Origin: Reclinomonas americana ATCC 50394
Lineage: Eukaryota
Length of the DNA: 46,439 nucleotides
Direction of reading: 5' to 3'
Assembly: GCA_048213135.1 (NCBI GenBank)
Contig: PS015242.1
Location: 1,726-48,164, forward strand
Translations under genes and position numbers: made by a program
Notes under the pieces: model-generated
What the model saw: only the letters and a program-made list of their open reading frames with translations
What the model was told of the DNA's origin: nothing
Databases searched by the model: none
Shown here: positions 2 through 37,232 of the stretch, piece by piece
Numbering within the stretch: the first letter of the stretch is position 1
Layout: each line of letters begins with the position of its first letter

Positions 2-340
2 AGCACGGTGCGTGTGTGGTCGGTGGTAAGTGGCGAGGAGGTGCGGCGATTGGGAGGGCACACCGACAGGGTGTGGTCAGTCGCCGTTGTGCGCGACGGG
101 GAGCACATTGTGAGCGGGAGTGAAGATAAGGTGGTGTGCGTGTGGTCGACGTCGCGAGGCCTGGCTCGGCAGGAACTCGATGCGGCACGTTCGGTGATGC
201 GCGCTGTGCAGGAGATGCAGCGCGAGGGCGACGGAGAGGATGATCCTCGTTGCCTGGTGGAGATCGTGTTCCGCTGCTTCTTGGTGGAGGAGGCGGAGGT
301 TGTTGTCCATCGGCGTCTCGCGTACGACGACAGCCTGTAA
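2..340 (+). CDS. WD40-repeat protein, array copy 1 (3' part only; 5' end outside window)
   Basis: Reads STVRVWSVVSGEEVRRLGGHTDRVWSVAVVRDGEHIVSGSEDKVVCVWS, then the shared tail GLARQELDAARSVMRAVQEMQRE..CLVEIVFRCFLVEEAEVVVHRR. Stop TAA at 338-340. Confidence 0.9.
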   Translation, partial: STVRVWSVVSGEEVRRLGGHTDRVWSVAVVRDGEHIVSGSEDKVVCVWSTSRGLARQELDAARSVMRAVQEMQREGDGEDDPRCLVEIVFRCFLVEEAEVVVHRRLAYDDSL

Positions 341-588
341 TTTTGAGGAGAAGATGGGTGGCGCTGCGCTGCTGCTTTCTCTCTATGTACTTGTCAGCTT
401 TGTTACCCTACTGCAGCTCTTCGAGGGAGTCCCTGTGATTCCGCTGTAAAGCGAATCCCTGTCTCGTCTCTCGCGGTGCTCCTTGTTCTGCCACTTGTGT
501 TCCTGGTTGCCGACAGCTTCTGCATAACGTTGCTTTCTTTCTTTCATAGCACACCGTCTCTTGACGGCGACGAGTGATGCACCAAAGA

Positions 589-610
589 ATGTCCCCGGGG
601 CGAAGGACAT
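589..610 (+). promoter_or_regulatory. Conserved inverted-repeat element upstream of WD40 copy 2 (ATGTCC-N10-GGACAT)
   Basis: Perfect 6-bp dyad 65 nt before the ATG. Equivalent dyads precede copies 3, 4 and 5. Function is inferred only. Confidence 0.35.
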
Positions 611-674
611 CACAAACTCAGTCGGTCTTTCTTGCGCACACACGCGCATTCACACCCTCTTTTACCCCTTCTCC

Positions 675-1626
675 ATGACCTCCGCTCCCCCTTCTCTCCT
701 CCACAAGTGCCTGCTTGGCCACACAGGTGCAGTGCATGCTGTTGCCGTCTCACCCGACGGCCAGCACGTGGTGAGTACTAGTGGCGGTAGGGACAAGACC
801 GTGCGAGTGTGGTCCGTGACGAGTGGCAAGGAGGTGCGGCGCTTAGAGGGTCACTCGGGCGAGGTGTTTTCGGTTGCCGTCACTCCTGATGGCCTGCACA
901 TCGTGAGCGGAAGTCAAGACTTGACAGTGCGANNNNNNNNNNNNNNNNNNNNNNNNNNNNNNNNNNNNNNNNNNNNNNNNNNNNNNNNNNNNNNNNNNNN
1001 NNNNNNNNNNNNNNNNNNNNNNNNNNNNNNNNNNNNNNNNNNNNNNNNNNNNNNNNNNNNNNNNNNNNNNNNNNNNNNNNNNNNNNNNNNNNNNNNNNNN
1101 NNNNNNNNNNNNNNNNNNNNNNNNNNNNNNNNNNNNNNNNNNNNNNNNNNNNNNNNNNNNNNNNNNNNNNNNNNNNNNNNNNNNNNNNNNNNNNNNNNNN
1201 NNNNNNNNNNNNNNNNNNNNNNNNNNNNNNNNNNNNNNNNNNNNNNNNNNNNNNNNNNNNNNNNNNNNNNNNNNNNNTAACACTGTGCGTGTGTGGTCCA
1301 TGGAGAGCGGAGACGAGGTGCGTCGGTTGATGGGGCACAGTGGCGACGTGGCCTCAATCGCCATATCGCTGAATGGCCAACACATCGTCAGTGGGAGTCT
1401 GGATAACACAGTGCGGGTGTGGTCAACGTCGTATGGCCTCTCTCGGCAGGAGCTTGACTGTGCTCGGTCGGCTATGTATGCTGTGCAAAAAATGCAGCGA
1501 GAGAACGAGGGAGAGGAGGAGCCAGATCGGCGATGTTTGGTCGAGATCGTTCTTCGCTGCTTCATCTTCGAGGATGCGGCGGTTGTTGTTCATCGGTCCT
1601 TCTCCACCAACAGCCTCGGACTGTGA
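675..1626 (+). CDS. WD40-repeat protein, array copy 2 (spans N-gap 933-1277)
   Basis: ATG 675 MTSAPPSLLHKCLLGH.., two blades before the gap, about 1.3 blades plus the conserved tail after it, TGA at 1624-1626. No introns visible. Confidence 0.88.
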
Positions 1627-1886
1627 CTCTCTGCCGTTTGCAAGAGGAGGCTCGAGGTATGCTTGTTGTGGCTGAGCGTTCTTCATCTCTCTCTCTCTCT
1701 CTTTTTCTCTCTATCTCCCTCGATGTACAATTCGCTTTGTTACCACTGTCGTCAACTTCGGCGTTGCTTTGGCATTATTTTCTTGTACTTAATAAACAAT
1801 TCCCCAGCGTTTGACGAATGACGTGCGCGTTGCTGGTGACAGGGTGACAGGGTGACGGATCAGTGCCAGCGCAGAAGTCCAAGAAA

Positions 1887-1912
1887 CGTCCCGCCGTCGT
1901 TATCGAAGGACG
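1887..1912 (+). promoter_or_regulatory. Inverted-repeat element upstream of WD40 copy 3 (CGTCC..GGACG)
   Basis: Same position as in copy 2, with a compensatory outer pair (C..G instead of T..A). Confidence 0.35.
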
Positions 1913-1965
1913 ACTCAAACTCACTCTTGCGCACACACGCGCATTCCCTCTTCTGCTCCCTCACC

Positions 1966-3300
1966 ATGACCTCCGCTCCCCCTTCTCTCCTCTGCAAATG
2001 CCTGCGCGGCCACACGAAGGCGGTGCATGCTGTCGCCGTCACCCCCGACAGTCAGCATGTTGTCAGTGGAAGTGAGGACAACACGGTGCGAGTGTGGTCG
2101 CTCGCGAGTGGAGAGCAGGTACGACGGCTGGAGGGGCACTCTCACCGAGTGCGTTCCGTCGCCGTCACCCCCGATGGTCAACACGTGGTGAGTGGGAGCG
2201 CGGACAAAACCGTGCGAGTGTGGTCACTGGCGACCGGAGAAGAGGTGCGACTGTTGAAGGGACATGCTGATTGGGTTACGGCTGTTGCCGTCACTCCCGA
2301 CGGTCAGTTTGTTGTGAGTGGGGTCGGTGACCGCACAGTACGCATGTGGTCGCTGGCGACTGGGGAAGAAGTGCGACGAATGGAGGGTCACTCTCGGTGG
2401 GTGCGTTCTGTTGCCGTCACGCGTGATGGTCAACACGTGGTGAGCGGCAGTGATGATGGGACAGTGCGAGTGTGGAGTGTGGCAAGTGGCGAGGAGGTGC
2501 GACGATTGGAGGGACACAGCGATGCGGTACTGTCTGTCGCCGTCACAGCCGATGGCCGGCAAGTGGTGAGTGGGAGCTTTNNNNNNNNNNNNNNNNNNNN
2601 NNNNNNNNNNNNNNNNNNNNNNNNNNNNNNNNNNNNNNNNNNNNNNNNNNNNNNNNNNNNNNNNNNNNNNNNNNNNNNNNNNNNNNNNNNNNNNNNNNNN
2701 NNNNNNNNNNNNNNNNNNNNNNNNNNNNNNNNNNNNNNNNNNNNNNNNNNNNNNNNNNNNNNNNNNNNNNNNNNNNNNNNNNNNNNNNNNNNNNNNNNNN
2801 NNNNNNNNNNNNNNNNNNNNNNNNNNNNNNNNNNNNNNNNNNNNNNNNNNNNNNNNNNNNNNNNNNNNNNNNNNNNNNNNNNNNNNNNNNNNNNNNNNNN
2901 NNNNNNNNNNNNNNNNNNNNNNNNNNNNNNNNNNNNNNNNNNNNNNNNNNNNNNNNNNNNNNNNNNNNNNNNNNNNNNNNNNNNNNNNNNNNNNNNNNNN
3001 NNNNNNNNNNNNNNNNNGGAAGGATATTCGGTGCGCTGTGTGGCCGTTACTCCCGATGGACAGCACGTGGTGAGTGGAGGTGGGGATGGCTCTGTGCGAG
3101 TGTGGTCGACGCCGTACGGCCTGGCTCGGCCGGAACTGGATGCGGCACGTTCAGCAATGCGGGCTGTGCAAGAGATGCAGCGTGAGGGAGAAGGCGAAGA
3201 AGAAGTGGATCGGCGCTGCTTGCCAGAGATGGTGCTGCGGTGCTTCTTGGTCGAGGAGGCGGAGGTTATCGTTCATCGGTGCTTCAGCCTTCGACTGTGA
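1966..3300 (+). CDS. WD40-repeat protein, array copy 3 (about 9 blades if the gap size is right)
   Basis: ATG 1966 MTSAPPSLLCKCLRGH.., five 126-nt blades (GH..V..VAVTPDGQHVVSGS.D.TVRVWSLASGEEVRR), gap 2581-3017, last blade and tail, TGA at 3298-3300. Confidence 0.92.
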   Translation: MTSAPPSLLCKCLRGHTKAVHAVAVTPDSQHVVSGSEDNTVRVWSLASGEQVRRLEGHSHRVRSVAVTPDGQHVVSGSADKTVRVWSLATGEEVRLLKGHADWVTAVAVTPDGQFVVSGVGDRTVRMWSLATGEEVRRMEGHSRWVRSVAVTRDGQHVVSGSDDGTVRVWSVASGEEVRRLEGHSDAVLSVAVTADGRQVVSGSFXXXXXXXXXXXXXXXXXXXXXXXXXXXXXXXXXXXXXXXXXXXXXXXXXXXXXXXXXXXXXXXXXXXXXXXXXXXXXXXXXXXXXXXXXXXXXXXXXXXXXXXXXXXXXXXXXXXXXXXXXXXXXXXXXXXXXXXXXXXXXXXXXXEGYSVRCVAVTPDGQHVVSGGGDGSVRVWSTPYGLARPELDAARSAMRAVQEMQREGEGEEEVDRRCLPEMVLRCFLVEEAEVIVHRCFSLRL

Positions 3301-3412
3301 CCAGTGGAGAGGGAGAGAGGGTTTCCTGTGTGTCCTCGTCATCAAGTGCTCGTCCGCCTCGTCTGTATAGTAAATTGTCGAGCAGCAAGCATGCAACAAT
3401 GGCGACGACGTG

Positions 3413-3442
3413 ATGTCCCTCCGTCCGCAAAGGGGAGGACGT
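3413..3442 (+). promoter_or_regulatory. Inverted-repeat element upstream of WD40 copy 4
   Basis: ATGTCCCTCC..GGGGAGGACGT, 67 nt before the ATG. Confidence 0.3.
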
Positions 3443-3508
3443 CATTCATCAACAACGAAATCACACACGCACACACTCTGCCCGTCGGCACACACACACA
3501 CACACATC

Positions 3509-4107
3509 ATGTCCTCAGNNNNNNNNNNNNNNNNNNNNAACTGGAGGGGCTTACTGGATGGGTGGCCGCGATTGCCGTCACCCCCGATGGTCAGCACGTA
3601 GTGAGTGGCAGCAGTGACTATACAGTGCGTCTGTGGTCGCTGGCGAGTGGCGAGGAGGTGCGACGAATGGAGGGGCACGCTGGCACAGTGTACTCGGTCG
3701 CGGTGACTGCCGATGGCCAGCACGTGGTCAGCGGGAGCTGGGACCAGACAGTAAGAGTGTGGTCGCTGGCAAGTGGAGAAGAAGTGCGACGACTGCAGGG
3801 GCACGCTCACTGGGTGCACTCTGTCGCCGTCACTCCGTGCGGTCAGCACATTGTGAGCGGCAGTGCGGACGGAACAGTGCGAGTGTGGTCCACGCCGTGC
3901 GGCCTCGCTCGGCAGGAGTTTTCCGCTGCTTGCGCCGCCATGCGGGCGGTGCAGGAGATGCAGCGTGAGGGAGAAGAGGAGGAAGAGAAGGAGGAGGAGG
4001 TGCCGGATTCACGGTGCTTGCCGGAGATGGTGCTGCGCTGCTTCATTGTCGAGGAGGCGGCGGTTGTCGTTCATCGGCGTGGAGTGGATCCCGAGTCGCG
4101 CTTGTGA
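3509..4107 (+). CDS. WD40-repeat protein, array copy 4 (20-N gap after MSS)
   Basis: ATGTCCTCAG start identical to copy 5. Three blades and the conserved tail follow the gap. TGA at 4105-4107. Confidence 0.88.
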
Positions 4108-4567
4108 ACAGAGAGAGAGGGAGGGAGGGAAGAAGAGAGAAAGGGAGAAGGGAGAGAGAGGGGGGAGGGAAGTAGAGAGAAAGGGAGAAGGGAGAGAGAG
4201 AGAGAGGGAGTGATAGGGAGAAGGGAGAGAGATGTATGAAAGCTGGATGCCTCCGCTGCTTTGCTTTGCCTGCTTCACGGATCCGGACCCGGCTTTGCTT
4301 TGTTTGGCTGGCTATGGCCGTTTCCCGAGATTCGACGTGCCGTGTACGATCGCAGAAACTGCTATGCGGCTGTGCAAGTGCGTCAACCACTGTTCAACCA
4401 CGCTTACCTGCAGTGATCATGACGATCGCAGTTCTCGACTTGTACGAAGCTCCGAGTGCGAACACACTCAGACAAGAAAGCTTGTTGCTGCTGCCCTCAA
4501 CACTGGTGTTTGTGTTGATGTTTGGTTGGTCATCAAGACAGCTATACTTGTTGTGGAAGTCGAGAAA

Positions 4568-4587
4568 TGTCCCCAAAAACAAGGACA
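4568..4587 (+). promoter_or_regulatory. Inverted-repeat element upstream of WD40 copy 5 (TGTCC..GGACA)
   Basis: 44 nt before ATG 4631. Confidence 0.3.
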
Positions 4588-4630
4588 CAAACACACGCAC
4601 CACTCACCATCGTCTTTGTGCGCATCCACC

Positions 4631-6889
4631 ATGTCCTCAGTTCCTTGCATTTATGCGCGGATGTTCCTGGGGGGTCACACTCAGCATGTGACCTGTATGG
4701 CTGTCACTCCCGACGCGCAGCACATTGTGAGCGGAGGGAGGGACAACACCGTGCGTGTGTGGTCTCTGGCGAGTGGAGAAGAAGTACGGCAGCTGGAGGG
4801 GCACACTGAGTGTGTGTACTGTGTCGCCGTGACTCCCGATAACCAGCACATTGTGAGTGGCGGGATGGACAAGACTGTGCGCGTGTGGTCACTGGCGAGT
4901 GGCGAGGAANNNNNNNNNNNNNNNNNNNNNNNNNNNNNNNNNNNNNNNNNNNNNNNNNNNNNNNNNNNNNNNNNNNNNNNNNNNNNNNNNNNNNNNNNNN
5001 NNNNNNNNNNNNNNNNNNNNNNNNNNNNNNNNNNNNNNNNNNNNNNNNNNNNNNNNNNNNNNNNNNNNNNNNNNNNNNNNNNNNNNNNNNNNNNNNNNNN
5101 NNNNNNNNNNNNNNNNNNNNNNNNNNNNNNNNNNNNNNNNNNNNNNNNNNNNNNNNNNNNNNNNNNNNNNNNNNNNNNNNNNNNNNNNNNNNNNNNNNNN
5201 NNNNNNNNNNNNNNNNNNNNNNNNNNNNNNNNNNNNNNNNNNNNNNNNNNNNNNNNNNNNNNNNNNNNNNNNNNNNNNNNNNNNNNNNNNNNNNNNNNNN
5301 NNNNNNNNNNNNNNNNNNNNNNNNNNNNNNNNNGTGCGATGTTTGGAGGGACACTTGTATACGGTGACGTCTGTCGTTGTCACTCCCGATGGTCAGCACA
5401 TCGTGAGCGCAAGTGGCGACTCCACAATCCGTGTGTGGTCGCTGGCGAGTGGGGAAGAAGTGCGGAGGTTGGAGGCACCCGCCGAATGGGTGTATGCTGT
5501 CGCTGTCACTCCCGATGGTCAGTATATCGTGAGCGGAATTCTAGACGAGACTGTGCGAGTGTGGTCACTGTCGAGTGGAGTGGAGGTGCAACAGCTGAAG
5601 GGCCCTGGGCACGCTGATTATGTGCTGTCTGTCGCCGTCACGCCCGACGGCCAGCATATCATCAGTGGGAGCTTTGACCATACAGTGCGAGTGTGGTCAC
5701 TGGCGAGTGGCGAAGAGGTGCGACGACTGGAGGGACACACGGGCTCGGTGCACTCGGTCGCGGTGACTCCCAACGGCCACTTCANNNNNNNNNNNNNNNN
5801 NNNNNNNNNNNNNNNNNNNNNNNNNNNNNNNNNNNNNNNNNNNNNNNNNNNNNNNNNNNNNNNNNNNNNNNNNNNNNNNNNNNNNNNNNNNNNNNNNNNN
5901 NNNNNNNNNNNNNNNNNNNNNNNNNNNNNNNNNNNNNNNNNNNNNNNNNNNNNNNNNNNNNNNNNNNNNNNNNNNNNNNNNNNNNNNNNNNNNNNNNNNN
6001 NNNNNNNNNNNNNNNNNNNNNNNNNNNNNNNNNNNNNNNNNNNNNNNNNNNNNNNNNNNNNNNNNNNNNNNNNNNNNNNNNNNNNNNNNNNNNNNNNNNN
6101 NNNNNNNNNNNNNNNNNNNNNNNNNNNNNNNNNNNNNNNNNNNNNNNNNNNNNNNNNNNNNNNNNNNNNNNNNNNNNNNNNNNNNNNNNNNNNNNNNNNN
6201 NNNNNNNNNNNNNNNNNNNNNNNNNNNNNNNNNNNNNNNNNNNNNNNNNNNNNNNNNNNNNNNNNNNNNNNNNNNNNNNNNNNNNNNNNNNNNNNNNNNN
6301 NNNNNNNNNNNNNNNNNNNNNNNNNNNNNNNNNNNNNNNNNNNNNNNNNNNNNNNNNNNNNNNNNNNNNNNNNNNNNNNNNNNNNNNNNNNNNNNNNNNN
6401 NNNNNNNNNNNNNNNNNNNNNNNNNNNNNNNNNNNNNNNNNNNNNNNNNNNNNNNNNNNNNNNNNNNNNNNNNNNNNNNNNNTTGTGAGTGGAAGCGACG
6501 ACCTCACTGTGCGTGTGTGGTCACTGGCGAGCGGAGCAGAATTACGAAGGCTGGTCGGTCACCGTGCACGGGTGTGTTCAGCAGCGGTCTCTCCCGATGG
6601 TAGGCATTTCGTGAGCGGGTGCGAGGACAACCTTGTGCGAGTGTGGACGACACCGTGCGGCCTCGCTCGCGAGGAAGTCGACTGTGCACGCGCGACCATG
6701 GGAGCGGTGCAGGATATGCAGCGAGAGAACACAGAGGACGACGAGGAGGTTGATTCACGGTGCTTGCCAGAGATGGTGTTGCGGTGCTTCATCGTCGAGG
6801 AGGCAGCAGTCGTGATGCATCGACGTGGACTGGACCCCGAGTCGCTTTTACCAATTGCAGTTCGGCAAAGACCACGTACACTTCTGTGA
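4631..6889 (+). CDS. WD40-repeat protein, array copy 5 (two N-gaps; may be two genes)
   Basis: ATG 4631 MSSVPCIYARMFLGGH... Blades are visible on each side of gaps 4909-5333 and 5785-6482. Conserved tail, TGA at 6887-6889. Confidence 0.85.
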
Positions 6890-8067: not shown

Positions 8068-10323
8068 CACACGCTCTCTATGGTGTGTGGCCATCAGCCT
8101 TGCACGTTCCGTAGCCAGTGCATGTGGGAGTGGGACTGCAGTTGCAGTTGGCATTAGTGTAGTCGCCAGTGCATCTCTCTTCCTCTTTGTCTATCTCTCT
8201 CTCTCTCTCTCTCTCTTATTACCTTCTCTTCTTTGCGTTCTCATTCTCTCTCTTTCGCTCTCTCTCTTTCTCTGCATGTGTGTCTGTCTGTCACTCAGAG
8301 TGAGAGAGAGAGAAGAAGCAGTACGACAAAGAGAAAGAAACAGTGACCGCGAAATAGAAAGAGAAGGCATGAAACGAGAGTTGATGCACTCAAGAGGAAG
8401 TGTTGCGCACGCGCGTGTGTGTGTGTTTGCATTCCCCTCTTCTTCTCTCTATGTCAGCAAGCAGACACCATACATACAACTCGGCTGCTTCTCTTTCTCT
8501 CTCTTTCTCTGGTTCTCTCTTTGTTCTCCCTCTCGGTCTCGCTGGTTCTCTTTCTATCTGTCTGTCTATCTGACTCTCTCTCCTTTGCTGTCTCTCTTTC
8601 TCTCTCTCTTTCCACCTCTGTCTGCCTCCCTCTGTGTCACCCTCCTCATTTCCCAAGGTGCTTGCAACGATTGCTTTTCATCTGTTATGAACAGATAGCT
8701 TGAATGCTGTGCATTCTGCATTGTATTCGCTGTTTTCTCATCGTTGCTCTCCCTTATTCCCTCTCTGCGTTGTGTCCTCATCTGTTTTCCTTCCCTTTCT
8801 CCCTCCTCGCAGAACGCGACGGTACCCTCGACAAGAAAAACGTACAGAAACTCAAAATCGTCCGCCAGCAAGTGCAGCAGCTCACCGAGGAAGGCGTGGT
8901 GCAACCGTTGCGTCTCGCCCTCCCCTCCTTCCATTCCTCCACCCTGTATCCCACTCACCCCACTTCACACAGTGGCGCAGCCGGTCGCGCCCCTTCAGTG
9001 GCTGGTCCTCGTCCGGCCACTGCTGGTGCACCGCAACCGCCACTGGGTGCGCAGCAACCCCCGATGCCTGCCGGCCCTCCACCCATTCCACCACATTTGT
9101 ATCCGCGACCCACCGATTCCGTGTATTACCACCCGGTCTCCAATCCATTCGGTATGCCACCGGCGGGCATGCCGCAGCGGTACCACCCGCCGTCGGCCAC
9201 GGTAATGCAGATTGCCGCAGCACAAATGCTTCAGCAGCAGCAGCAACAGCAGCAAATGATGATGGGTGAAGGATTCCAGCCTCCACTACCGCCGGGCCCG
9301 CCACCCACACGAGTTGCGTCGCGGGTCTTCTCGCTTGTCTTCTGCCTCCATTGCACTCATCGATCCTGCGCAGATGGAAGGCGCTGGTGGTGACGACGAC
9401 GACGACGATGACGAAGACGTGGAGGATCACGGCATCGGTGGTGATGATGATGATGATGACGACGACGACAGCGAAGGCGACGATGAGGAAGATGGCGACG
9501 GCGGAGATGATGGCATGGGCGGCGGTGGTGCACCAGACAGTGATGGCGACGGCGGAAGCGACGATGACGACGACGAGTTGGACTTGTCGGCGATTCCGAT
9601 TCCCGATGAGTTCCTGGAGGGCACGGTGTGTCACTCCTTCCCTCTCTCACTCTTCACGCTTTCTCCTTGTTCACTCGCGCATTTTCTCTCCTTAACAAAA
9701 GTCTGCGGCTCGGCCACCACCACCACCACCACCACAGCCACCTCGTCCGTACATGCCAGCTGGTGTACCACAACCGCCACTGCCGCCAGGCGCACCGCCG
9801 ATGATGATGATGATGGCGCACCCCCACGCGCATCCACCTCACCATCACCTCCAGCACCAGCCGCCGTTGCCGCCAGGCCCACCACCTGCCGGTCTTCTGC
9901 GCCCTCCCATGCCTGCTGGCGGTGGACCACCACCACCTCCCCAGCAACAGCAGCCAGGGATGATGATGCGGCAGCCTCCGCTTCCACCCGGACCCATTCC
10001 ACCGCACCTGCAGCCGGCTGGTATGCCGTACGGCATGCCGCCAGGGCCCATGATGATGATGGGTGCTCGTCCTCCGCCGGCTCAGCCACCGCTTCCTCCC
10101 ATGCCACCACCAGCGCACTTGATTGAGGAGCAGCGCAGAAAGGAGGCGCTGGAGGCCGGACGTGTGGTCACCAAGACGCAGGTCGTGGCCGCGCCGACCA
10201 TGAACGAGTTCACCGCCAAGCTCAAGCAGCAGCAGGGCAAGTTGCTGGCCGGCACGCAGATTATTCCCTCGACGGCGTCGGCGACGGGGTCCACGAAGGC
10301 GGCGTCGTTGCCGTCCGCGGCAG
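7190..10323 (+). CDS. WBP11: WW domain-binding protein 11 (NpwBP/SIPP1) homologue, splicing factor; partial, spliced
   Basis: Exons 7190-7197 and 7329-7385 give MGRKYTNKTKQGKMLNPTDAFR, matching the WBP11 N-terminal K.GK..NPTD..RK signature. Further exons: 8813-8906 (ERDGTLDKKNVQKLK..), 8973-9312 (PPPGPPP-rich), 9374-9625 (acidic, then DLSAIPIP) and 9702-10323 (Pro/Gly/Met-rich). All have GT-AG ends. One internal exon and the 3' end were not found. Confidence 0.85.
7523..7699. repeat. (TGAG)n microsatellite in WBP11 intron 2
   Basis: Runs of gagtgagtgagt leading into a 20-N gap. Confidence 0.95.
7921..8174 (-). pseudogene. Two tandem EGF/tenascin-like Cys-rich coding relics, antisense in WBP11 intron
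   Basis: Minus strand reads CTGDYTNANCNCSPTPTCTGYGTCKADG and CTGDYTNISCSCSPSFTCSGNGTCKADG in two ~140-bp units separated by an AG run. Confidence 0.6.
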
Positions 10324-10828
10324 GTGAGGGTTGGGGAAGGGAGGGGGGAAGGGGAAGAGAGAACAACTTGGGGAGTTAGGGAAAGCTTGGAGAGAATGTG
10401 CTTGACTGTTGTGCTCGAATTTCATCATCTTCTCAAGTTTTTCCTTTCTTCGTCCTCATGCTTCTTCCGTTCGTCATCGCAGGCATGGTTTTTCTTTCTT
10501 CATCGTCCTCCCTGTCCGTCTTGCTCCTTCCTCTCTTCTTCTCCTTCTTTTTCCTGTCTTCTTCTTCTTCTTCGTTCTCTTCTCCTCCGCTTCTGTCGTT
10601 TTACCTTTTCCTTATCTCTTTCTTTTTTTGCCTTCTCCTCCCCTCTTTCCTTTCTTCTTTCTTCTTTCTTTCATCTTCTTCTCCTCACTGTCCTTCTTCC
10701 TCTCTTTCTCTCTAACACTTATTCTGCCTTCGTCTGTCGTTGATTGCCTTCCCTCCCTTCCGTTCTCTCGGACTTCTCTTGTGTCTCACTTGTGTCCCTC
10801 CCTCGTTCTCTCTCCTTTCGCCCCCATT

Positions 10829-11961: not shown

Positions 11962-14059
11962 ATGACAGAGTTGCGTACACACACACGTGCACACTCTCTC
12001 TCCTCCACTCACTCTTTTCTCCCTTCACAGAGCACGGGACACTCTTGTCACGCTCCTCGGCAGTGACTCATCGCGCTCACTTCCGCGAATCTCCGAGCTG
12101 CTGCACGCGAACCCTGCACTGCTCACTGCCACTCTCCACAAGGGCCGCCACCAGACGCTGCTGCACCTGCTCGCACGACACGCACGCGTCGATGTGTGGA
12201 CGCACGTGGTCCGCCCAATGCTCCTCGCGCACTCGCCCTCGCCCTCGCCAGCTCTGTGCGCCACCGATGTGCACGGACTGACTCCGATGCATGTGGCGGC
12301 ACGATACGGGCGCGCGGACGATGCAGGCGTGGTGGCAATGCTGCAGGAGATGGTGGACATGTGTCCGGAGGTGCTGCGTGTTCGGGGTCCGACTGCGGCC
12401 GAGTATGCGCGCGTTCGCGGCAATCGGCGCATGGGAGCTGTGCTGGAGGCGATGGTGCCGCAGCAGGACGAGGGCGATGGGCAGGAGTCGCCGCCTGAAT
12501 TCAAGGTCGAATTGATGGAGACGGCGAGCCGACGGGGAGGTGAGTGGTGGGAGAAGGTGGCTGCATGAAGGCGTGCGAGGCCCTCACCTCCTTCAGCAGT
12601 TGCGGCCAGTCGGTACTCGCGGCACAGTCCTGAGTGGAAGGCGGCAAACACGGTGCAGGGGCGAGTGGCGCAACTGGAGCGAGAGGTGGCGGAGCTGCGA
12701 GCGGAACGAGGTGCGAAGTGGGATTGAGGGGAGAGGGTGGAGGCAACGGGTGACTGACCGCGTGCTGCAGATACGCTGCTGGACGATCGTCTGCGGGAGC
12801 TCAAGGTGGCGACCGACACCACCATGAGGCTGACGGAGAGTCAGCGGGAGGTGGAGACGCTGAAGGTGTGTGCACTGCACAACAACAACTCCAGCTGCCA
12901 GTAATTTCTCACCTTCTTTTGTTGCAGAAATCGATGGAGCGGCTGGAGCGCCAGAACCAGCGACTGCAAGACAAGCTGAGAAAGTGTGCCAGTGAGACAG
13001 GTAAACACTGGGTGGGTGCGGCACGACTGAATTCGGCCTGTGACTGACCGCGAGTGCACACAGTGAACCGCGATGCCTTGCTGCACACGCTGTGGCGCGA
13101 GGTGCAGTTCTACGAACAGGAAATGGCCCCACTGCTAGCCCCCGATGGTAAGTGCGACGCCACTGCTGCAGCAGGCTATGTACAGAAGACTCACTCGGCA
13201 AGCAGAGAGCGACGAGGAAACCCGCCGAGTGTGTCAATCGCTGCAAGAGCGAATTCGCGAGGCACTTGGACGCGCTCCCGAAGAACCGTTCGTGCCAACA
13301 ACCGTGCCGCTGCCAGATGCACTCGAGGAGGAGGAGGACGACGAGAAGGAGCAGGAGGAGAAGGAGAACGATGAGCCAGCAGTGGAGCGCGTGGGCCACC
13401 TGCTGAAAGAGTGCCGACAGCTGGGACCGACTGCGCGAAAACGCATGAAGCAGGCCGTGGAGAGGAAGAACAAGAAGGAGGAGGAAAAGGGGGAGCAGGT
13501 GGAGGAGCGAGCGGTGGAGGCCATGCGTATGATGCGTAACGAGGCCAACGTGGTCGCCGAGAGAGTTGCGTCGAGGACAGGGAAAGGGGGGAGGGGGGAA
13601 AGGGAAAGGGGGGAAAGGGAAAGGGGGAAGGAAAAAGGCAAGGGGAGAAAGAGAAAACGCAAAGGGAGACGGGGAAGGGCGTAAAGAAAGAAGGGCCTTG
13701 AGAAAAGGGGAACGGGAAACGAAGAGAAGAGAAGGGGAGGAGGGAAAGGGGACAGGGGTTGGAAAGAGAAAAGAGATCAAGAAAGGAAGAAGGAAGGAGG
13801 CGAGGAGGGAAAAGGGACGGGTAAAACGAAAAAAGAAGAAAAGGGGACGGGAAAATGAAGAAGAATAGAATGCGGGAGGGATAGAAAAAAGGTGAGGGAG
13901 AGGGCATCACTGACAACAGCCTCTCACTCTCCTTGTCGTTCTACCATTCATTCCCCACCACACAGCTCACCGCCCAGCGTCGTGCCCTCCTGCAAGTCAC
14001 GCAAGCCGACAGTGAGCTGGCCACGCAGCTGAGAGCCGCCGATCAGGCCCACGAGGCAG
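11962..14059 (+). CDS. Ankyrin-repeat plus coiled-coil protein; spliced, 3' end lost in gap
   Basis: ATG ACA GA|intron|A GCA CGG. Ankyrin motifs GRHQTLLHLLARH, DVHGLTPMHVAARYG and GPTAAEYARVRG. Later exons are heptad/charged (RVAQLEREVAELRAER; KSMERLERQNQRLQDKLRK; LTAQRRALLQVTQ). Confidence 0.8.
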
Positions 14060-19400: not shown

Positions 19401-22400
19401 GACGACTGTCCAACCCGCGTACACGTGAAGAACACAATCGCCGTCTCCGCCAGTCCCTCATACGCTCCCTGCAGCAGCACCACCGTGGTGGCCACGAAGC
19501 GATTCACGCCACCCGTGCGGTCGAACCACTCGAGGAAGCGAATCCAGCGATGTCGTCGCTCACTGATGTGCTCCAGCGCATCAATCGAGGGCACCTTCAG
19601 GCACCACTTGACCATCATTCGACACAACAACCATTGCATGCCAAAGGTGGCCCATAGCAGCGCCACGTAGAGCACTGGCGACAGGATGCGCATGACTAGG
19701 TCGCCCACCGCATCCAGCATCAGCGGGCACCCGCTGGCGAAGAAATTCGGCACAAAGAACGACACGAGACGGCCGACCGACAGCAGCTCCACATTGGGGT
19801 AGAACAGCAAGGCGGCAGTTTGGAGGGTGAAAATAATGGACTCGGCGGTGCCTGCGACGTGGGGGAAGTGAGCATAGAAAAAAGGCAGTGCTTGGAGAGA
19901 TGCAACTCACCACCCCCACTACTCGCGTGGAATAAAACGTGCGTGAACAGCACCACCGCCCACATCTTCACGATGGTAAAGAACTGAGCGGAACGCGAGG
20001 TCTTTGTGCACGGGATGCACTCGCCGTTGAATTGGGAGTAGCCGTCCTGCGAGATGATGTAAAGAGTGAGAAAGAGAGACGGAGGGAGGAAGAAAGAGTA
20101 AGAGAGGCGATGGGAGAGACGGAGAGCGATAAGTAGTGGAAAGCGGCCAGTGAGGAGGAGCGAGGAGGAGCGACGATTGACAGAGGAAGAGAGAGGGGCA
20201 GAGAGACAGAGAGCGAAGAGGAGGAGGAGGAGCAAGGAAGAGGAGGAGGAGCAAGGAGGAGCGAGGAGGAGCGAGGAGGAGCGAGGGGGAGCGGGGGGGA
20301 GCGAGGAGGAGCGAGAATGAGCGAGAATGAGCGAGAAAGAGAAGAGCGAGAGAAAGCAAGAGGAGAGCGAGAGAGCGACAAAGAGGGAAAGAGGAGAACA
20401 GTGGAGATACCATAAGAGGTGGAGAGTGAGGAGGAGAGCAACAGGAGCGAAGCAAACCGCTCAGAGTGAGAGAAACGAGGAAGAGCGAGGAAAGGCAAGG
20501 GAAGAGCAAGAGAAGAGTGAAGGGGCGACAAGAGCGAAAAAAAGGGGAAAATAGGAAAAGTATAGAGGAAATTCAAGAGGAGAGCGACTGAGCGAAGCAA
20601 ACCGCTCAGAGTGAGAGAAACGAGGAAGAGCGAGGAAGACGGGCCGAGCATGAGCGAGCGAGAGGGAGTAAGACAGAGAGAGAGAGAGAGAGAGAGAGTG
20701 CAAGAAGAGGGAGAGAAAGGGATAGTGATTGCGACAGTGAAAGGGCATGTGCGACAGTGAAAGGGCATACGCGACACGGAGAACGCAAGAGCAACATTAA
20801 CATCCGTCAGCGGGGCCACTCTCTCTCACCCCCAGTTCCCTCCTTGCGACTCTGCGGCTTCGTCACCAAGCGCACAAGAAAGAACATTACCCTTGTCTTC
20901 CTCCTCTTTCCCCATCTCCGACTCACCAAACACGCTCCGCACAACGGCGACAGCGGATCACGATCCACACCATCGTTGCAGTACGCCACCGGATCCGTGT
21001 CGGTCACATTCACCAACACATCCGGCCGAATGCAGTAATCGTACGGACAAATGTAGGCCACCACCGACCCATCGGCAGGCGGCTGCACCCAGCTCCCAGT
21101 TGTGCCGCGTGCGCGCACCGGCTGCGTCGACCAATCGGAGTTGATGGGGAATGTCCAGTGCTGCGAGGCCACCACCAGCGACGATCCACCCTGACAGTCC
21201 ACATTGAGGGGGCACGGCAAGCAGGTCTGGTTGAACGAGGCCGCCGGCAGTGCGTACGTGCCCGTAGGACACGCCTCGCACCCTACATCGGTAATGTACT
21301 GCAGACCGGCCGGACACGGAGCCACATTGACGGCCACCGTCGGCGTCGCCGAGCTGGCAAACGTGCCGCCGTTGGCCACCGATACGGAAATGGCGAAATC
21401 CGACGACGCCGCGGCGCGCACAATTACCAACTCCCGCGTCGAGTTGGTCGATGATGATGAAGCAGCAGAAGAGGTGCTGTTGGTGGCTGAGCCACGTTGG
21501 TTGATGAGGAGGTCGAAGCGAGCTGTACCGTCGAGCGTGGATCGCGACTGCACTTGACTCTGCGCACGAAAAGGTAAAGGAGGATTGAGTGAGTGACGAA
21601 TGGATAAGCAGCAAGGCGTGCACGCCAGATCCACTCACTCCAACACTGCAGCCGGAACACGAGAGCGAGAACATGGTGTTGTCCAGAGTGGCCATGAACT
21701 GGCCAAATACATCCGCAGCATCCACAAACACAGTGCGTGGAACCGTCGGAGAGGGGAATACCGAGGCCTCGGCGGCCTCGGTGCGCACAAATACGCTGAA
21801 CAGGCCTGCAAACGTAAAACGTTGCGAAGTCAGCAAGAAAGACCTTTGTGATATCTCAGTCAAACACGACTCCGAGATTCAAAGAAAGAGAACAAAGAAA
21901 CTACAAACAACCGACAAACAAAAAGAGCGCAAGCTACCCATCAGAACAAGGATACCTTGCTATTGTGCCACATACGTTTCTAGAAAACAAGAATGCAGAG
22001 ACACTTGACAAAGAGATAGTTCCTCTCGAACTCTCTTCCGCACTCTCGCTTTATCTATATCGCCCTCACTCTCTCTCTCTCTCTCTATCTATTTCTCTCT
22101 CCTCTCCCTCTCCCTCTCCCTCTCCCTCTCCCTCTCCCTCTCCCTCTCNNNNNNNNNNNNNNNNNNNNNNNNNNNNNNNNNNNNNNNNNNNNNNNNNNNN
22201 NNNNNNNNNNNNNNNNNNNNNNNNNNNNNNNNNNNNNNNNNNNNNNNNNNNNNNNNNNNNNNNNNNNNNNNNNNNNNNNNNNNNNNNNNNNNNNNNNNNN
22301 NNNNNNNNNNNNNNNNNNNCTCCTCCTCCCTCCTCCCTCCTCCTCCTCCCTCTCCCTCCTCCCTCCTCCTCCTCCTCCTCCTCCTCCTCCTCCTCCTCCT

Positions 22401-25400
22401 CCTCCTCCTCCTCCTCCTCCTCCTCCTCCTCCTCCTCCTCCTCCCTCCTCCCTCCTCCCTCCTCCCTCCTCCTCCTCCTCCCTCTCCCTCTCCCTCTCCC
22501 TCCACCTTCCCCTTTTTCCCATCCTTCCCCTTTCCCCACCCTTCCCTTTCCCCACCCTTCCCCTTCTCGCTCAACTGCTTCCCAAATCCGCCGCCGCCCC
22601 ATTCGTGGCCGTATTATTCGACAACTGCAACCCGTGCCCGTCTCTCCACGCCGCCACACCGCCACCCTGCGCCACCGCCGCCGCCACCGTCGTCAGGTGC
22701 ACCGGATCTCCACCACCATTCCAATAGATGCCGCCACCCGCACCCTCACCCAACATGTGCGTCGCATTCACCGGCGCCATGGCGCGATTGCCCGTCAGCG
22801 TCACACTCTCCAGTCGCACACCAATGGCCAGTGCATTGGCGGCCATCTCCGCCTCCGTCGACGGTATGGCAGTCATGTTGACAGCGAGACCGCCGCCGCG
22901 ACCGCCCGACACATTGTTCTCGAATCGCGTGCTGAGAAACGCCGTCGTGGTGCTGTTGGACACTGAGGCGCCGCCGCCGTCGCCAGTCGACGCCACATTG
23001 CCCGTGAACACACATCGCGAGCACGTAATGTCGGCCTCGTCACCGCCAAACAGTCCGCCACCGGCCGCGCCAGCTACATTCGCCACCAGGTTGGTGTCGT
23101 TGAGGGACACCGACGGTGAATTGGCCACATACACGCCGCCGCCCAGCTGCGCCTCGTTGCCAATCATGTCCACATTGGTCAGCGACACCGCGGCGGACTC
23201 GATAATAGAGATACCACCGCCACCGCCACCGCCACCGTCCACTGCATTCTCGACAATTCGGCTGCGCACCAGCTGCACACCGGCATTGCCGGCTACCGCC
23301 ACCGCACCGCCCCACAACAATGCTCCGCCACTGCTCAACGAGCTACCACTGTCCGTCCACAGTGCTCGACCGCCGACACTCACATGGCCGCCGACGGTGC
23401 TCGCCGTGTTGGCCGTGAACTGCGTTGTCGACGTCACCACCGTCGCGAGTTGCGAGATCAGCATGGCACCGCCGGCCAGCACCGCGCTATTGCTCGACGC
23501 CGTGCAATTGGCCATCTGCATCGACGATGCACCATCGGCATACACACCACCACCGTCGGCTGGATCGGCAGAATTGCTCGACAGCGTCGCCTTGCTCCAC
23601 GTGTGCGACGTCTCGCCCGTCGAGTACAGACCACTGCCAAAGGCCGCTCGGTTGCCTTGCACCAGCGCGCCACTAACGCTCGTGGAAGACGACGAGTCTG
23701 CAAATATGGCGCCACCAAAGCGCACAGCACTGTTGTTCGTGATGGCGACTTGCTCGTCGTTGACGGTGAGTTTGGAGGAGCTGGTGAGCTGCGCTCCGCC
23801 ACCGTTATGAGTGGCGGTGTTGTCGGAGACTGTCGTGTGCGCCGCCAGCACCAGCTCAGCGAGGTCGTTCTGCACCGCCACTCCACCGCCATACTGCGCC
23901 GTGTTGGAGTGCACTTGACAACCGCTGAGTGTCACATAGGCACCGACATTGACCACCAGCACACCACCACCGAACCCGCTGGCCGCCGCGTTGCTAGCGA
24001 CATCAACCGCCGTAAACACAACATCGACACCACTCGCCGACACGCCACCGCCCCCGTACTCGGCGGTGCAGCTCGTCACCGTACTATTGGTGAGCTGTGA
24101 ACCGTCCGACAGCAGTGCACCACCGCCGCTGACCAGCTGGCCCGTCACGACATTGGAGCGGAACTCGCACCCACTGGCGACACTCGAATCGTGCAGCAGG
24201 AGACCGCCGCCGCCGCCCACACGACCGGCGCTGACTAGCGGCGCACTCGACGACACCGAGTTGGTCGAGAACTTGGACGACGAGAGTGTCACATCGCTCA
24301 GCAGTAGCGCACCACCACCGCCACACAACACTCCCGAGTCGAAGCGTGTGGCCAGCGAACGCGGCCGCCGTCGCGCACGCAGGCCACCAACACCCGCGTC
24401 AACGACGATGTTGCCGACAAACGAGCAGTCGGACACCGTCGACGGCTGATTCAGCATCAGCAACCCGCCACCGCCATTCCAGCTACTCCCCGCTCCCTGC
24501 GACACGGTACGATCGCCACCGGCGCCATCGCCGACCGACTGGTTGTTCGTAAAGTTGGAGTGCCTCACCACGGCCTGTGCGGTATTCGACGCCGGCATGC
24601 CCGGTCCAAACACAAGCAGCGCGCCACCGCCATTGAATCCGCCGACGGAGTAACCGAGCACGGAGCCTGCGCCGCCGGCTCCATTTCGCGACGACATGTT
24701 GGAAGTGAAGCGGCACGAGTCCACCGCCTGAGGAGGAGAAACATATTCAGAAAGTATTGGTACTTTTTTGTGCTCATCACTTTCGGAGCACAGTGCACTC
24801 ACCACATTGGCCGATGCGGAAAACGTAGTGGGCACAAGGAAACCGCCACCGCCACAATACGTGGCAAACGAAGATCCCGACGCTGTGCAATTCGCGCCTC
24901 CACTCCCTGAAGAGCACACTTGGTCAGCGTGTGCATACAATGAAGGAAGCACTGAAGTGTTTGGTATTCTAACCATTCCCAATGGCGGCATTGCCGGTGA
25001 CAGTGCAGTTGCGAATCTGGCGACACGCCAACACGTAAGGGATCTCACCTCGACAGCAGTAAGCAGCACACAAGAGTACACGCACCAGCACACCCGACTT
25101 TTGGTCAGGCGCAAGGAGCACAGCACCGCCCCCGCTGTTTGCCGCAAGCGAGTCGCCAAGAGCACTCCGCGAACCGCCCTGCCCATTATTAGACGCAGTG
25201 TTGCTCGAGAACGTGCTGTCCACAATCACCTGCGCGGGTAGCTAGTTAGCGATGCGATAAATTCCCCCTAGCTTCCTTTCATGGGAGACATACGGATGCA
25301 TCAAGACGCCGAGTGAACAGGGCTGCCAAGATCGCACCGCCACCATGAAATCCGTCTGTGACCGACCCGTCGCCACCGTCGCTACCTGCACACAATAAAG

Positions 25401-26763
25401 AAGAAGAGGAGAGAAACAGAGAGAGAATGTAAATTTGTCCGTCGGTGTGGGTTGAATGAAAATGAGATGCGCACCACCACTGCCATTGCCATCGGCCACA
25501 TTACCGACGAATGAGCTTCTCGTCACATTCAACTGGCCAAGAGCACGAAATGAGGTTGATCGTGGTGAACAGGCGGCAACATTTAGCACAATGGAAGGAC
25601 GACGAAACGTAGCCAGTGTATATATTCGCCGCTCCACCGCCATTGTACGTCCCCGTGCTCTTCCCCAAGTTGCTGAAACTGCCTGTTGATAATGCGCAGC
25701 AGCGTAAACGTACAATAACAAGAGTCTCGGCAATGCAACATCGGGCTTACCGCCAGCTCCGTTGCGACTGGCCGTGCTATTGACAAATGTGCAGTCGACT
25801 AATGTGACAGAGCCCTGGGAAGTAGACGCCAGGATGAGCCTCAAAGAAGGCAGGGCGTGTGGAAAAGTGTGTACGTGTCTCTCTCTCACACACACACACA
25901 CCGTATCGACGCCATGTTGTTTCGCCATGGCTGATAGCAACATGGCACCGCCTCCATTCTGGGAGCCTGTGCTTGATGCGTCGTCACCACTGACCGCCAG
26001 AAACGCACCTACAAGCAAGATGGGAAAAGATAAGAAAGACTGAGTTGGCAAGGGATCCAGAGACGAAGAAAATGGCGTCGAGGGATAGTGCGGCGAACCA
26101 GTGACGGAAAGAGAGAGGGAGAGAAAGAGAAAGAGAGCTAGAGAACACCCAACAAGAGAGAAAACCGCACAGAAGACGCCTAATGAAGAGATGCCAAGTT
26201 CAAGCGCTGCTTACACTCGCGAGTTGGAGAGGAGCGAAAGTGAGAGCGTGCGAGAGAAGCAACACCATCACCAGTGATACAGCACGATTTTCCGTATCTC
26301 ACTTTCGCTCTGTCAATACCTCCACACAACCGCACACGAAAGAAAAAAATTTCGGAACAAAGGTAATTGACAAGCTCACCTCCCACCCCGTTCAAACTGG
26401 CGACATTTGTGGCAAATGTTGAACTCGACACAGAGACCTACGCACAGACAATAATACTGTTTGAAAACGAGAGGTCCTGTTCCGTATCTTTGACGCCACT
26501 CACCGTGGCGCCGGCAAACCACACTGCACCACCGCCGTTCTGTCCAAGGGAGCTGGTGGCCTCACTGGTGCACCCTTTGCCTGCGCAAAGACCAAGTAAA
26601 TAACGCGGACAAGTGAGAGGGCGGCGGGTCTGAGAACACGGACCGCCGACGCCATTCATCACGGCCGTGTTGTTGGTGAATGTGCAAGAACTGATTGTCA
26701 GCTGCAGCAGTGAGACGCGGAGTGAGCAAGATACCCGTTTATCTACAGACAGCAGGAAGGCAC

Positions 26764-26799
<36 letters not shown>

Positions 26800-29700: not shown

Positions 29701-30197
29701 CTGTCAATCGCACACGCAGTGTGAGTCCCAACGCAGTCAGTATATTCTTGACTCGCTCACTCACCGAACGCGAGCGCAGCCACACTGCTCCACCACCACA
29801 ACTTGAAGCAGACGAATCAGCGGCGCCATAGTTGTTCCAACCTGCACATGCGAACGTCAGCCCACAGCCAGCGTCAATGAACACGTAAGAAGAACAGACC
29901 GCCACGGCCATTGCTACCCGCAAAATTGCCAACAAACGCACTTGTGATCACGACAAGTGAAGTCTGAGTGAGAGAATGAGGTGAGAATGGAGGTGCCTGA
30001 GAATGCCAAGATTTACAGCCATAACTTGATAGAGGGGAAGGGAAATGTACAGCGCGCCACCTCCAGAGTCGCCGAGGCTGCTCGTGCCACTTCCCTGATT
30101 ACTGTCACCTACAGACACATAGTAGAATACACACAAACACAATGATACACATGCACGCACGTGTGAGACAGGATATGAGTGTGTGACAGGCCTGTGG

Positions 30198-30240
<43 letters not shown>

Positions 30241-30368
30241 NNNNNNNNNNNNNNNNNNNNNNNNNNNNNNNNNNNNNNNNNNNNNNNNNNNNNNNNNNNN
30301 NNNNNNNNNNNNNNNNNNNNNNNNNNNNNNNNNNNNNNNNNNNNNNNNNNNNNNNNNNNNNNNNNNNG

Positions 30369-30446
<78 letters not shown>

Positions 30447-32410: not shown

Positions 32411-32451
<41 letters not shown>

Positions 32452-33119
32452 GTANNNNNNNNNNNNNNNNNNNNCTCCTCCTCCTCCCTCCTCTCCTCCT
32501 CCTCCCTCCCTCCCTCCCTCCCTCCTCCTCTCTCTCTCTCTCTCTCTCTCCCCCTCTCCCCCCACCCACCTGTGACCACCAACTGCGAGCCGGCCGACGT
32601 CAAATCATAATCGCCCGCCACCAACCACACATTCATCGTCGTCCACGTCGTCCCCACCGACGCCACACTGAATCCCTGCGCGCCTACACACGCATCCACC
32701 GCCTGATCCAGTGTACAAGGCGAATCCACATCCTCCCCGCAGGCGTCAGTGCCCAGTGAGCCTCCCGGCGACACATACACTACACACAAAATCGGACAAA
32801 ATCAATCAATCCTTCTCTGTTTTCTCTCTGTCTCTCTTTCTCAGTCTGCGTGTGTACCTTGACACGTGTCGGCAGTCGACGCTGGTGGTGTAATGACAGC
32901 GCGAGTGGCGAATCGGTGGTGAACATGGCCGGTGGACGACGGCACAACGGCCGCACTCGCTCTTGATCGCACACTCGGTAACCAGTTTGCTGGCGATGTG
33001 TGTGGCGACGATGGTGATTCATGAGCTGCTGTTTCTATTGCTGTTGTGGAGTACACCGCTGTAATCATTAATATCGTGACTGCGATGATGAGTAGCTTGG
33101 TCGCATTGATGGCGGTCAT
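16494..33119 (-). CDS. Large secreted Pmp-like (GGA/FxxN) beta-helix + Cys-rich (GCC2/GCC3-like) + multi-pass membrane receptor-like protein, about 40 exons
   Basis: Signal peptide MTAINATKLLIIAVTILMITAVYS at 33119. VYVSPGG..CGEDVDSPCTL cap. Dozens of F..N / GGGA[VLI] repeats. DVFGQ segment. Cys-rich CPAGLQY..CEACPTGTY..CLPCPLNVDCQGG..CPYDYC..PLCGACL|DGY..ECIPC. Several hydrophobic helices with FTLQ, FGVLYDAYR..WF, RRLVLL and PY..ENIME|TISL motifs. Ser/Pro-rich tail, TAA at 16494-16496. Confidence 0.85.
26808..27225. repeat. Complex-sequence tandem repeat, unit 120-121 bp, about 3.5 copies, intronic
   Basis: ACAA[A/G]TCCCT at 26821, 26942, 27062 and 27183. Confidence 0.9.
29579..29642 (-). 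other. Probable GC-AG intron
   Basis: GGA G|gcgaga...ttgacag|GT GCC. It is the only phase-1 donor available, at the position where 12 sister introns use GT. Confidence 0.65.
30199..30510. repeat. (CA)n microsatellite with internal gap
   Basis: Long cacaca runs flank the Ns at 30241-30367. Confidence 0.95.

Positions 33120-37196: not shown

Positions 37197-37232
<36 letters not shown>

What the first reader, a model, noticed from the sequence alone, without database searches (positions are those of the whole stretch)
2..6889. Tandem array of WD40 genes with near-identical blades and hypervariable surface positions: candidate diversified recognition repertoire
Seen: at least five same-strand genes built from one 42-aa unit, LEGHxxxVxSVAVTPDGQHVVSGSxDxTVRVWSLASGEEVRR. 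The scaffold is nearly invariant. The residues after GH differ in almost every blade (TDRVW, SGEVF, SHRVR, ADWVT, SRWVR, SDAVL, AGTVY, AHWVH, TECVY, LYTVT, ADYVL, RARVC), as do those flanking the conserved D (EDN, QDL, ADK, GDR, DDG, SDY, WDQ, MDK, LDE, FDH). Established: these positions form the top ligand-binding face of WD40 propellers, and the same pattern (concerted repeat evolution with diversified top-face codons) characterises the fungal HNWD non-self receptors HET-D/HET-E/HET-R. Inference: this is a stand-alone receptor library with no NACHT domain, diversified by repeat shuffling, possibly for intracellular non-self recognition in a protist.
Basis: partly seen in the sequence, partly recalled or inferred. 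Interest (0 to 1): 0.78.

Follow-up and report, generated by a model that had tools for sequence, protein, structure and literature searches.

The report
Thousand-copy variable WD40 propeller family
A bacteria-eating flagellate carries over a thousand small ring-shaped binding proteins that keep one scaffold and one unknown tail but differ on their binding face, which looks like a large recognition library whose targets and job are still unproven.

Summary
The array is real: five same-strand WD40 genes, four of them broken by N gaps and one cut by the window edge. The tail motif occurs 1,141 times in the assembly (control 2), and both haplotypes are partly present. An EST labelled Reclinomonas americana (a jakobid) matches one member exactly. 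The variable positions are those selected in fungal HNWD receptors (codons 7, 9, 25, 27), plus codon 6. Three corrections. Blades are about 58% identical, not near-identical, and are not homogenised within genes. The same blade also builds about 150 HEPN-like/NACHT/pentapeptide/WD40 NLRs, and one short gene is made of NLR-type blades. Positive selection is ambiguous: omega is about 2 with a shared synonymous rate and about 0.8-1.1 with a free one. Simulations and clustered differences point to short-patch gene conversion replacing whole codons. Best reading: a conversion-diversified library of intracellular binders whose constant tail docks on a shared, unknown partner. An immune role is inferred, not shown. 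This scan already noted the family on other contigs.

The parts
2..340 (+). Gene 1, 3' part: last blades plus tail (5' end lies before the window, behind an N run)
675..1626 (+). Gene 2, WD40 propeller plus tail; N run 933-1277
1966..3300 (+). Gene 3; N run 2581-3017. Its 5' part matches one C282 gene, its 3' part another (chimera or scaffold join)
2181..2182 (+). Site where gene 3 lacks exactly one 126-nt blade unit relative to its near-identical counterpart on C282
3509..4107 (+). Gene 4; the 20-N run at 3519-3538 stands where the middle blades would be
4631..6889 (+). Gene 5; three pieces around two N runs that add up to seven blades plus tail, so read as one gene (inference)
146..340 (+). 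C-terminal tail of gene 1 (helix, acidic linker, conserved motif)
1423..1626 (+). Tail of gene 2
3106..3300 (+). Tail of gene 3, used as query; no family match; predicted helical hairpin at low confidence
3889..4107 (+). Tail of gene 4
6647..6889 (+). Tail of gene 5

Best explanation
A lineage-expanded library of cytosolic, variable-specificity binders in a jakobid. Each gene encodes one seven-blade WD40 propeller (fold predicted with high confidence). Five top-face codons per blade vary widely, while the scaffold and a 60-residue C-terminal tail are under strong purifying selection (shown). The family grows by tandem duplication (shown). It is re-mixed by short-patch gene conversion and occasional unequal crossover among thousands of roughly 65%-identical blades: this keeps the scaffold uniform and swaps top-face codons wholesale (conversion inferred from clustered differences; single events seen). 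The constant tail probably docks bound targets onto one shared partner (inferred). The most likely targets are foreign proteins from prey bacteria, symbionts or viruses (inferred from the HNWD parallel and from the NLRs built of the same blade).
For: Tail motif 1,141 matches vs 2 for the control; the pattern catches 129 of 141 known tails. 85 of 93 complete genes have seven blades by length; 102 of 111 assessable genes have an intact frame. AF2 propeller blocks pLDDT 91-99; top Foldseek hit 5yzv, E 5e-35. Entropy 3.5-3.9 bits at blade positions 6, 7, 9, 25, 27 against 2.6 or less at all others (807 blades); 7, 9, 25, 27 are the top-face codons of HNWD (PMC1805685). Scaffold omega 0.24, tail 0.11-0.18. 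All 30 sites flagged by the M8-type model fall on those five positions. Synonymous differences are 1.57 times expectation next to multi-nucleotide top-face changes and 0.73 times next to unchanged ones (20 pairs). Differences cluster in 7 of 9 close pairs at p<0.01. One 126-nt indel between near-identical copies; in-register mosaic blades in five gene pairs plus one borderline pair. 154 NACHT matches. One of 106 short genes has seven NLR-type blades. EST identical to a member.
Against: No target, partner or induction is shown. With a free synonymous rate, omega at codons 7, 9, 25 is 0.82 (0.81-1.06 across codon-frequency choices). The four closest pairs give 0.53 (CI 0.16-1.2). The variable sites may therefore be merely unconstrained. 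Only 1 of 41 difference patches had both versions elsewhere in the sampled pool. The tail matches no family. The sample is about 8% of the family and biased towards window-like members. Copy number is inflated by separately assembled haplotypes.
Confidence: 0.55

Rival explanations
1. A specific version of the best reading: the tail is a degenerate VHL/SOCS-type box, so the family is a set of cullin-RING ligase substrate receptors that bind variable, possibly foreign proteins and send them for ubiquitination, as WSB proteins and expanded nematode F-box families do.
For: The layout (WD40 repeats, then a C-terminal helical box) matches WSB1 as described in PMC3355856. The second tail motif fits the Cul2-box consensus of that paper in 70 of 137 tails, at a spacing inside its 8-23-residue range (read from the consensus). 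The genome encodes a divergent Elongin C, Skp1-like genes and F-box-like matches.
Against: Strict BC-box consensus in only 2 of 137 tails and the Cul5 LPxP motif in 0 of 137. No SOCS-box or F-box Pfam match among 60 tails. The SOCS-box scan of the genome found 0 matches. The Cul2-box pattern carries little information.
Confidence: 0.2
2. The short genes serve the NLRs: either as separate sensor propellers that dock through their tail on the HEPN-like/NACHT proteins, or as a donor pool of blades for them.
For: Same blade and same variable positions in both classes. One chimeric short gene with NLR-type blades at 85-92% nucleotide identity. The NLR C-termini carry a helix that hhalign places in register with the tail motif.
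Against: That alignment is not significant (probability 0.2%, E 0.3). Apart from the one chimera, no short-gene blade reaches 0.88 identity to an NLR blade. A pure donor pool would not keep intact frames and a tail at omega near 0.1.
Confidence: 0.15
3. Largely neutral expansion (genomic drift): a small, mostly single-exon gene amplified by tandem duplication and conversion, with selection only on folding; the top-face residues vary because nothing constrains them.
For: Free-rate omega of 0.6-0.9 at the five sites. Whole-codon import with true omega of 1 or less reproduces the apparent omega near 2 in simulation. Probable allele pairs show no excess of change. 9 of 111 copies failed the intact-frame test, and tail-only fragments exist.
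Against: Other loop positions (14-18, 35-39) stay conserved while only the top-face set varies. The tail lies outside the propeller, yet it is the most conserved part and survives on propellers whose blades have degenerated, including two from outside this assembly's best matches.
Confidence: 0.2

Closest known systems
Podospora HNWD/NWD receptors (HET-D, HET-E, HET-R); PMC1805685 and PMC13449251, passages read
   Same: Variable codons 7, 9, 25, 27 around conserved 8 and 26 on the propeller top face; exchange of repeat DNA between genes.
   Different: HNWD repeats are 80-100% identical and sit behind HET and NACHT domains in about ten genes with variable repeat number. Here there are about a thousand NACHT-less genes with seven blades nearly fixed, about 58% internal identity, exchange mostly in sub-blade patches, and an orphan C-terminal tail.
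Moderately and highly repetitive WD40 proteins (PMC5587647, passages read; PkwA WD40, PDB 5yzv)
   Same: Seven-blade fold (TM-score 0.97 by target length, 41% identity); internal identity inside the paper's moderately repetitive range of 0.4-0.7.
   Different: In the passages seen, no thousand-copy diversifying family and no such tail.
NACHT-pentapeptide-WD40 NLRs of Mortierellomycota and Mycoavidus (PMC11291939, passages read)
   Same: Architecture of the long class in this genome (NACHT E 1.5e-9, pentapeptide E 2e-8).
   Different: The long class here adds a HEPN-like domain (Pfam E 0.08-0.12 only) and an upstream exon that looks ubiquitin-like by eye. The window's genes have none of these domains.
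WSB1/2 WD40-SOCS-box substrate receptors (PMC3355856, passages read)
   Same: WD40 repeats followed by a short C-terminal helical box.
   Different: BC-box and Cul5-box consensus not met; WSB genes are few and conserved (recalled), not a diversifying family.

Membership tests
WD40 seven-blade propeller | WD40 repeats closing into a seven-blade propeller | tested here: met
   7 PF00400 stretches; AF2 model with 28 strands; Foldseek. Tested on the complete paralog L045:7981-9066, because window genes contain N runs.
HNWD/NWD NLRs | NACHT domain upstream of the WD40 repeats | tested here: not met
   Complete short genes are about 345-370 aa with the start about 13 residues before blade 1; NACHT occurs only in the separate long class.
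HNWD/NWD NLRs | High internal conservation of repeats (80-100%, or similarity of 0.7 or more) | tested here: not met
   Mean 0.58; 1 of 106 short genes at 0.7 or more, against 8 of 28 in the NLR class (simple identity, not the paper's Psim).
HNWD/NWD NLRs | Hypervariable codons 7, 9, 25, 27 | tested here: met
HNWD/NWD NLRs | Positive selection on those codons | tested here: inconclusive
   M8- vs M8a-type 2dL 494, omega 1.8-2.2; free synonymous rate gives 0.82; simulations show the conversion confound.
HNWD/NWD NLRs | Concerted evolution by exchange of whole repeats within and between genes | tested here: inconclusive
   Within-gene homogenisation absent (1 of 2,228 pairs at 0.9 or more); between-gene in-register mosaics, one blade-sized indel and patch clustering present.
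HNWD/NWD NLRs | Non-self recognition leading to cell death | not testable with these tools
   needs experiments
SOCS/VHL-box substrate receptors | BC box (S,T,P)LXXX(C,S,A)XXX-hydrophobic | tested here: not met
   2 of 137 tails; 28 of 137 if the first position is dropped (consensus).
SOCS/VHL-box substrate receptors | Cul2 box or Cul5 box | tested here: inconclusive
   Cul2-type pattern 70 of 137, Cul5 LPxP 0 of 137.
SOCS/VHL-box substrate receptors | Binding to Elongin C | not testable with these tools
   needs a pull-down; see Tried and rejected
F-box proteins | F-box profile match | tested here: not met
   0 of 60 tails (HMMER filters drop most matches above E 0.1), although the genome has F-box-like matches elsewhere.

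The most novel reading that the evidence does not exclude
A jakobid runs a receptor repertoire of about a thousand NACHT-less WD40 propellers whose binding faces are re-written by short-patch gene conversion. An invariant, undescribed tail couples whatever they bind to one common effector, such as a divergent Elongin/cullin ligase or the co-expanded HEPN-like NLRs. That would be a variable-region/constant-region intracellular defence system in a deep-branching protist.
Probability: 0.25. Interest if true: 0.85.

Novelty: new variant of a known kind. Interest (0 to 1): 0.6.

Why it matters
How free-living bacterivorous protists detect microbes inside the cell is largely unknown (own knowledge). 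A family of this size, varied at the same codons as fungal non-self receptors but without an ATPase switch and with a constant orphan tail, gives a concrete, testable candidate in Discoba. The tail's partner can be found by one pull-down. It is also a caution: apparent positive selection in repeat families can come from codon-scale gene conversion.

Tried and rejected
Tail identity. No convincing Pfam family for 60 tails; no usable Atlas hit. The tail model is a generic helical hairpin with best Z 7.6 and many tied rows, uninformative. A likeness of the second tail motif to the C-terminal helix of ribosomal protein eL34 (all 9 PDB hits, best E 0.7; own eL34 beaten or equalled by 1 and 5 of 20,000 shuffles) is not significant once the search size is counted; kept as a weak lead only. 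Complex prediction of the tail with the genome's Elongin C gave 'no answer' (score 0.01, alignments not used); not evidence either way. Skp1 and eL27 could not be tested because their genes are split into exons or partial. Sequencing runs: none was listed. The word-index protein search with a whole short protein returned generic WD40 proteins. One search had an optimiser fault (omega stuck at its start value) and is replaced. A mutation hotspot at the variable codons was rejected: four-fold sites differ at 26 of 193 there against 513 of 3,422 elsewhere. Literature: searches listed no paper describing this family or WD40/NACHT expansions in jakobids (listings only; subscription journals are not covered; supplements not opened).
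Full report
OBSERVATION. Window 2-6889 holds five same-strand genes built from a 42-residue WD40 blade, with stops at 340, 1626, 3300, 4107 and 6889. N runs interrupt four genes and the window edge cuts the first. The three pieces of gene 5 add up to seven blades, so I read them as one gene (inference). All five end in a tail of about 60 residues: a helix, an acidic linker and a second conserved motif.

CONTEXT. The window is G000:C234:1726-48164 in a 108-Mb, intron-rich eukaryotic assembly. A profile of 60 tails found 3 proteins among 1.84 billion representatives. One is a EukProt EST translation labelled Reclinomonas americana, 100% identical over 116 residues to G000:C5977. The organism is therefore this jakobid or a very close relative, and at least one member is transcribed. 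The other two are unnamed Logan proteins with degenerate blades and a recognisable tail; the one I searched (P0125) has only 23-33% identity to this genome's copies in the long matches, so the architecture is probably older than this expansion. Contig C282 is colinear with the window at 88-97% identity from position 3028 to 13.6 kb, through a neighbouring WBP11-like gene. I read it as the other haplotype, which means copy counts are inflated by up to two.

FAMILY SIZE AND ANATOMY. A 20-nt degenerate tail pattern matches 1,141 times (reversed control 2) and catches 129 of 141 known tails, so about 1,250 copies lie in the assembly. From 90 loci plus the window I extracted 141 short-type and 28 NACHT-type frames, setting aside 77 fragments and 3 NLR ends. 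These loci were chosen from best hits, so the sample is biased. Of 93 complete short genes, 85 have seven blades by length. Of 111 assessable copies, 102 have an intact frame. In 20 further regions the tail sat on single propellers or on tail-only fragments, never on another domain. AlphaFold2 on a complete paralog gives a closed seven-blade propeller (blocks pLDDT 91-99) and a low-confidence helical tail (56-72). The top Foldseek hit is the PkwA WD40 domain.

THE NLR CLASS. The same blade builds a second class: 154 NACHT matches from 218 candidates, 150 scored. Its layout is an upstream exon that looks ubiquitin-like by eye, a HEPN-like domain (weak Pfam E 0.08-0.12; a V/L-R-N/K-x-x-x-H motif in 21 of 28), NACHT (E 1.5e-9), pentapeptide repeats, and 7-22 detected blades. 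This class does show internal repeat duplication (7 of 28 genes with a blade pair at 0.92 or more, against 1 of 137 short genes). One of 106 short genes (L028:976-2052) consists of seven NLR-type blades, 85-92% identical to NLR blades, joined to the short-family tail. No other short gene reaches 0.88. The two classes are related and have exchanged DNA at least once, but do not form one freely mixing pool.

VARIATION. Over 807 short-class blades, positions 6, 7, 9, 25 and 27 have 3.5-3.9 bits of entropy, the others 2.6 or less. In the model these lie in the d-a loop, the start of strand a and the b-c turn. Paoletti et al. (PMC1805685, passages read) place HNWD codons 7, 9, 25 and 27 there, on the top face; I had no coordinates to measure the face directly. 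Blades are not near-identical: 0.58 amino-acid identity within genes. Nucleotide identity is 0.659 within genes, 0.665 between genes at the same position and 0.657 at other positions.

SELECTION. A home-made GY94 site model on 93 genes (fixed nucleotide tree, parameter grid) prefers a class with omega about 1.8 (2dL 494 against the M8a-type null); all 30 flagged sites are at the five positions. Against this, freeing the synonymous rate gives omega 0.82 for codons 7, 9, 25 with a synonymous scale of 11 against 4.3 on the scaffold, and kappa falls from 3.0 to 1.7. Simulation, two replicates per setting, shows that true point-mutation omega 2.2 is recovered correctly, whereas wholesale codon replacement on top of omega 0.5-1 reproduces the observed triple. 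Four-fold sites in the variable codons are not faster than elsewhere (26 of 193 against 513 of 3,422), but changed variable codons differ at two or three bases more often (128 of 228 against 297 of 816; 20 pairs). Sister-pair estimates are 0.53 (4 closest pairs, CI 0.16-1.2), 1.31 (15 pairs, 0.99-1.61) and 2.17 (17 deeper pairs, open to saturation). The sites are certainly released from constraint; positive selection is possible but not established.

MECHANISM OF DIVERSIFICATION. Differences between close copies come in patches of roughly 10-40 nt (read from the maps). Synonymous changes are 1.57 times expectation beside multi-base top-face changes and 0.73 times beside unchanged codons. Clustering is significant in 7 of 9 close pairs. 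A donor search was weak: one version found elsewhere for 13 of 41 patches, both for 1, none for 27, in a pool holding about a tenth of the family. Whole-blade events also occur. Window gene 3 lacks exactly 126 nt relative to its C282 counterpart, between short identical stretches. A neighbouring, otherwise different C282 gene shares an exact 151-nt tract with it. Fourteen of 651 blades are in-register mosaics. An assembly error cannot be excluded for single events.

THE TAIL. It is the most conserved part (omega 0.11-0.18; several invariant columns, partly by construction because members were selected on this motif). It matches no family. Its position after the last blade recalls WSB-type SOCS-box proteins, and the genome has Elongin C and Skp1-like genes. 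But the BC-box consensus of PMC3355856 (passages read) is met by 2 of 137 tails, a Cul2-type pattern by 70 and the Cul5 motif by none. A likeness to the eL34 C-terminal helix is not significant. The partner is open.

VERDICT. A real, very large, probably functional family of single WD40 propellers with a variable top face and a constant orphan tail. It works like an HNWD sensor domain in where it varies, but is not an HNWD member: no NACHT, no high internal conservation, nearly fixed blade number. I rate the diversified-binder reading at 0.55, with the ubiquitin-ligase version at 0.2, the NLR-helper version at 0.15 and neutral drift at 0.2 (the first two overlap with the main reading). Seven literature searches listed no description of it. 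Earlier notes of this scan report the same family on other contigs; they are unchecked leads, not support. The genome-wide count, the conversion-versus-selection result and the NLR-blade chimera are from my own calls.

Noticed in passing
L028:976-2052 (-), G000:C381: Short-family gene whose seven blades are NLR-type (85-92% nucleotide identity to NLR blades): a chimera between the two classes.
   Followed up: partly
L035:1255-5508 and about 150 other loci: HEPN-like/NACHT/pentapeptide/WD40 NLR family, 84-95% identical in the NACHT block among 24 sampled, with variable blade number.
   Followed up: partly
L091:1498-1869: Divergent Elongin C (34% to the nearest named homologue) with an insertion before the last helix, shared with one unnamed metagenome protein.
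   Followed up: partly
L122:4192-5170 and 8167-8427 (G000:C51): Run of tail-only, partly decayed copies downstream of short genes.
   Followed up: no
window 8704-10379 (+): WBP11-like gene (Pfam NpwBP, E 1e-8), colinear with C282.
   Followed up: partly
window 11966-12568 (+): Ankyrin-repeat exon (Ank_3, E 1.5e-5).
   Followed up: no
window about 20800-32600 (-): Large multi-exon gene with right-handed beta-helix repeats (Beta_helix, E 7e-20 for 22571-25222), probably a surface protein.
   Followed up: no
window about 34000-45300 (-): Multi-exon gene whose translated pieces look importin-beta-like by eye; three pieces scanned gave no Pfam match.
   Followed up: no
window about 42860-42960 (+): Lone WD40-like exon unrelated to the array.
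   Followed up: no
L110:1501-1764: The organism's eL34 C-terminal helix shares 7 of 11 residues with the core tail motif; not significant, unexplained.
   Followed up: partly
window 580-675, 1870-1965, 4560-4630: Similar upstream sequence before the start codons of genes 2, 3 and 5 (by eye), as if the duplicated unit includes a promoter or 5' UTR.
   Followed up: no
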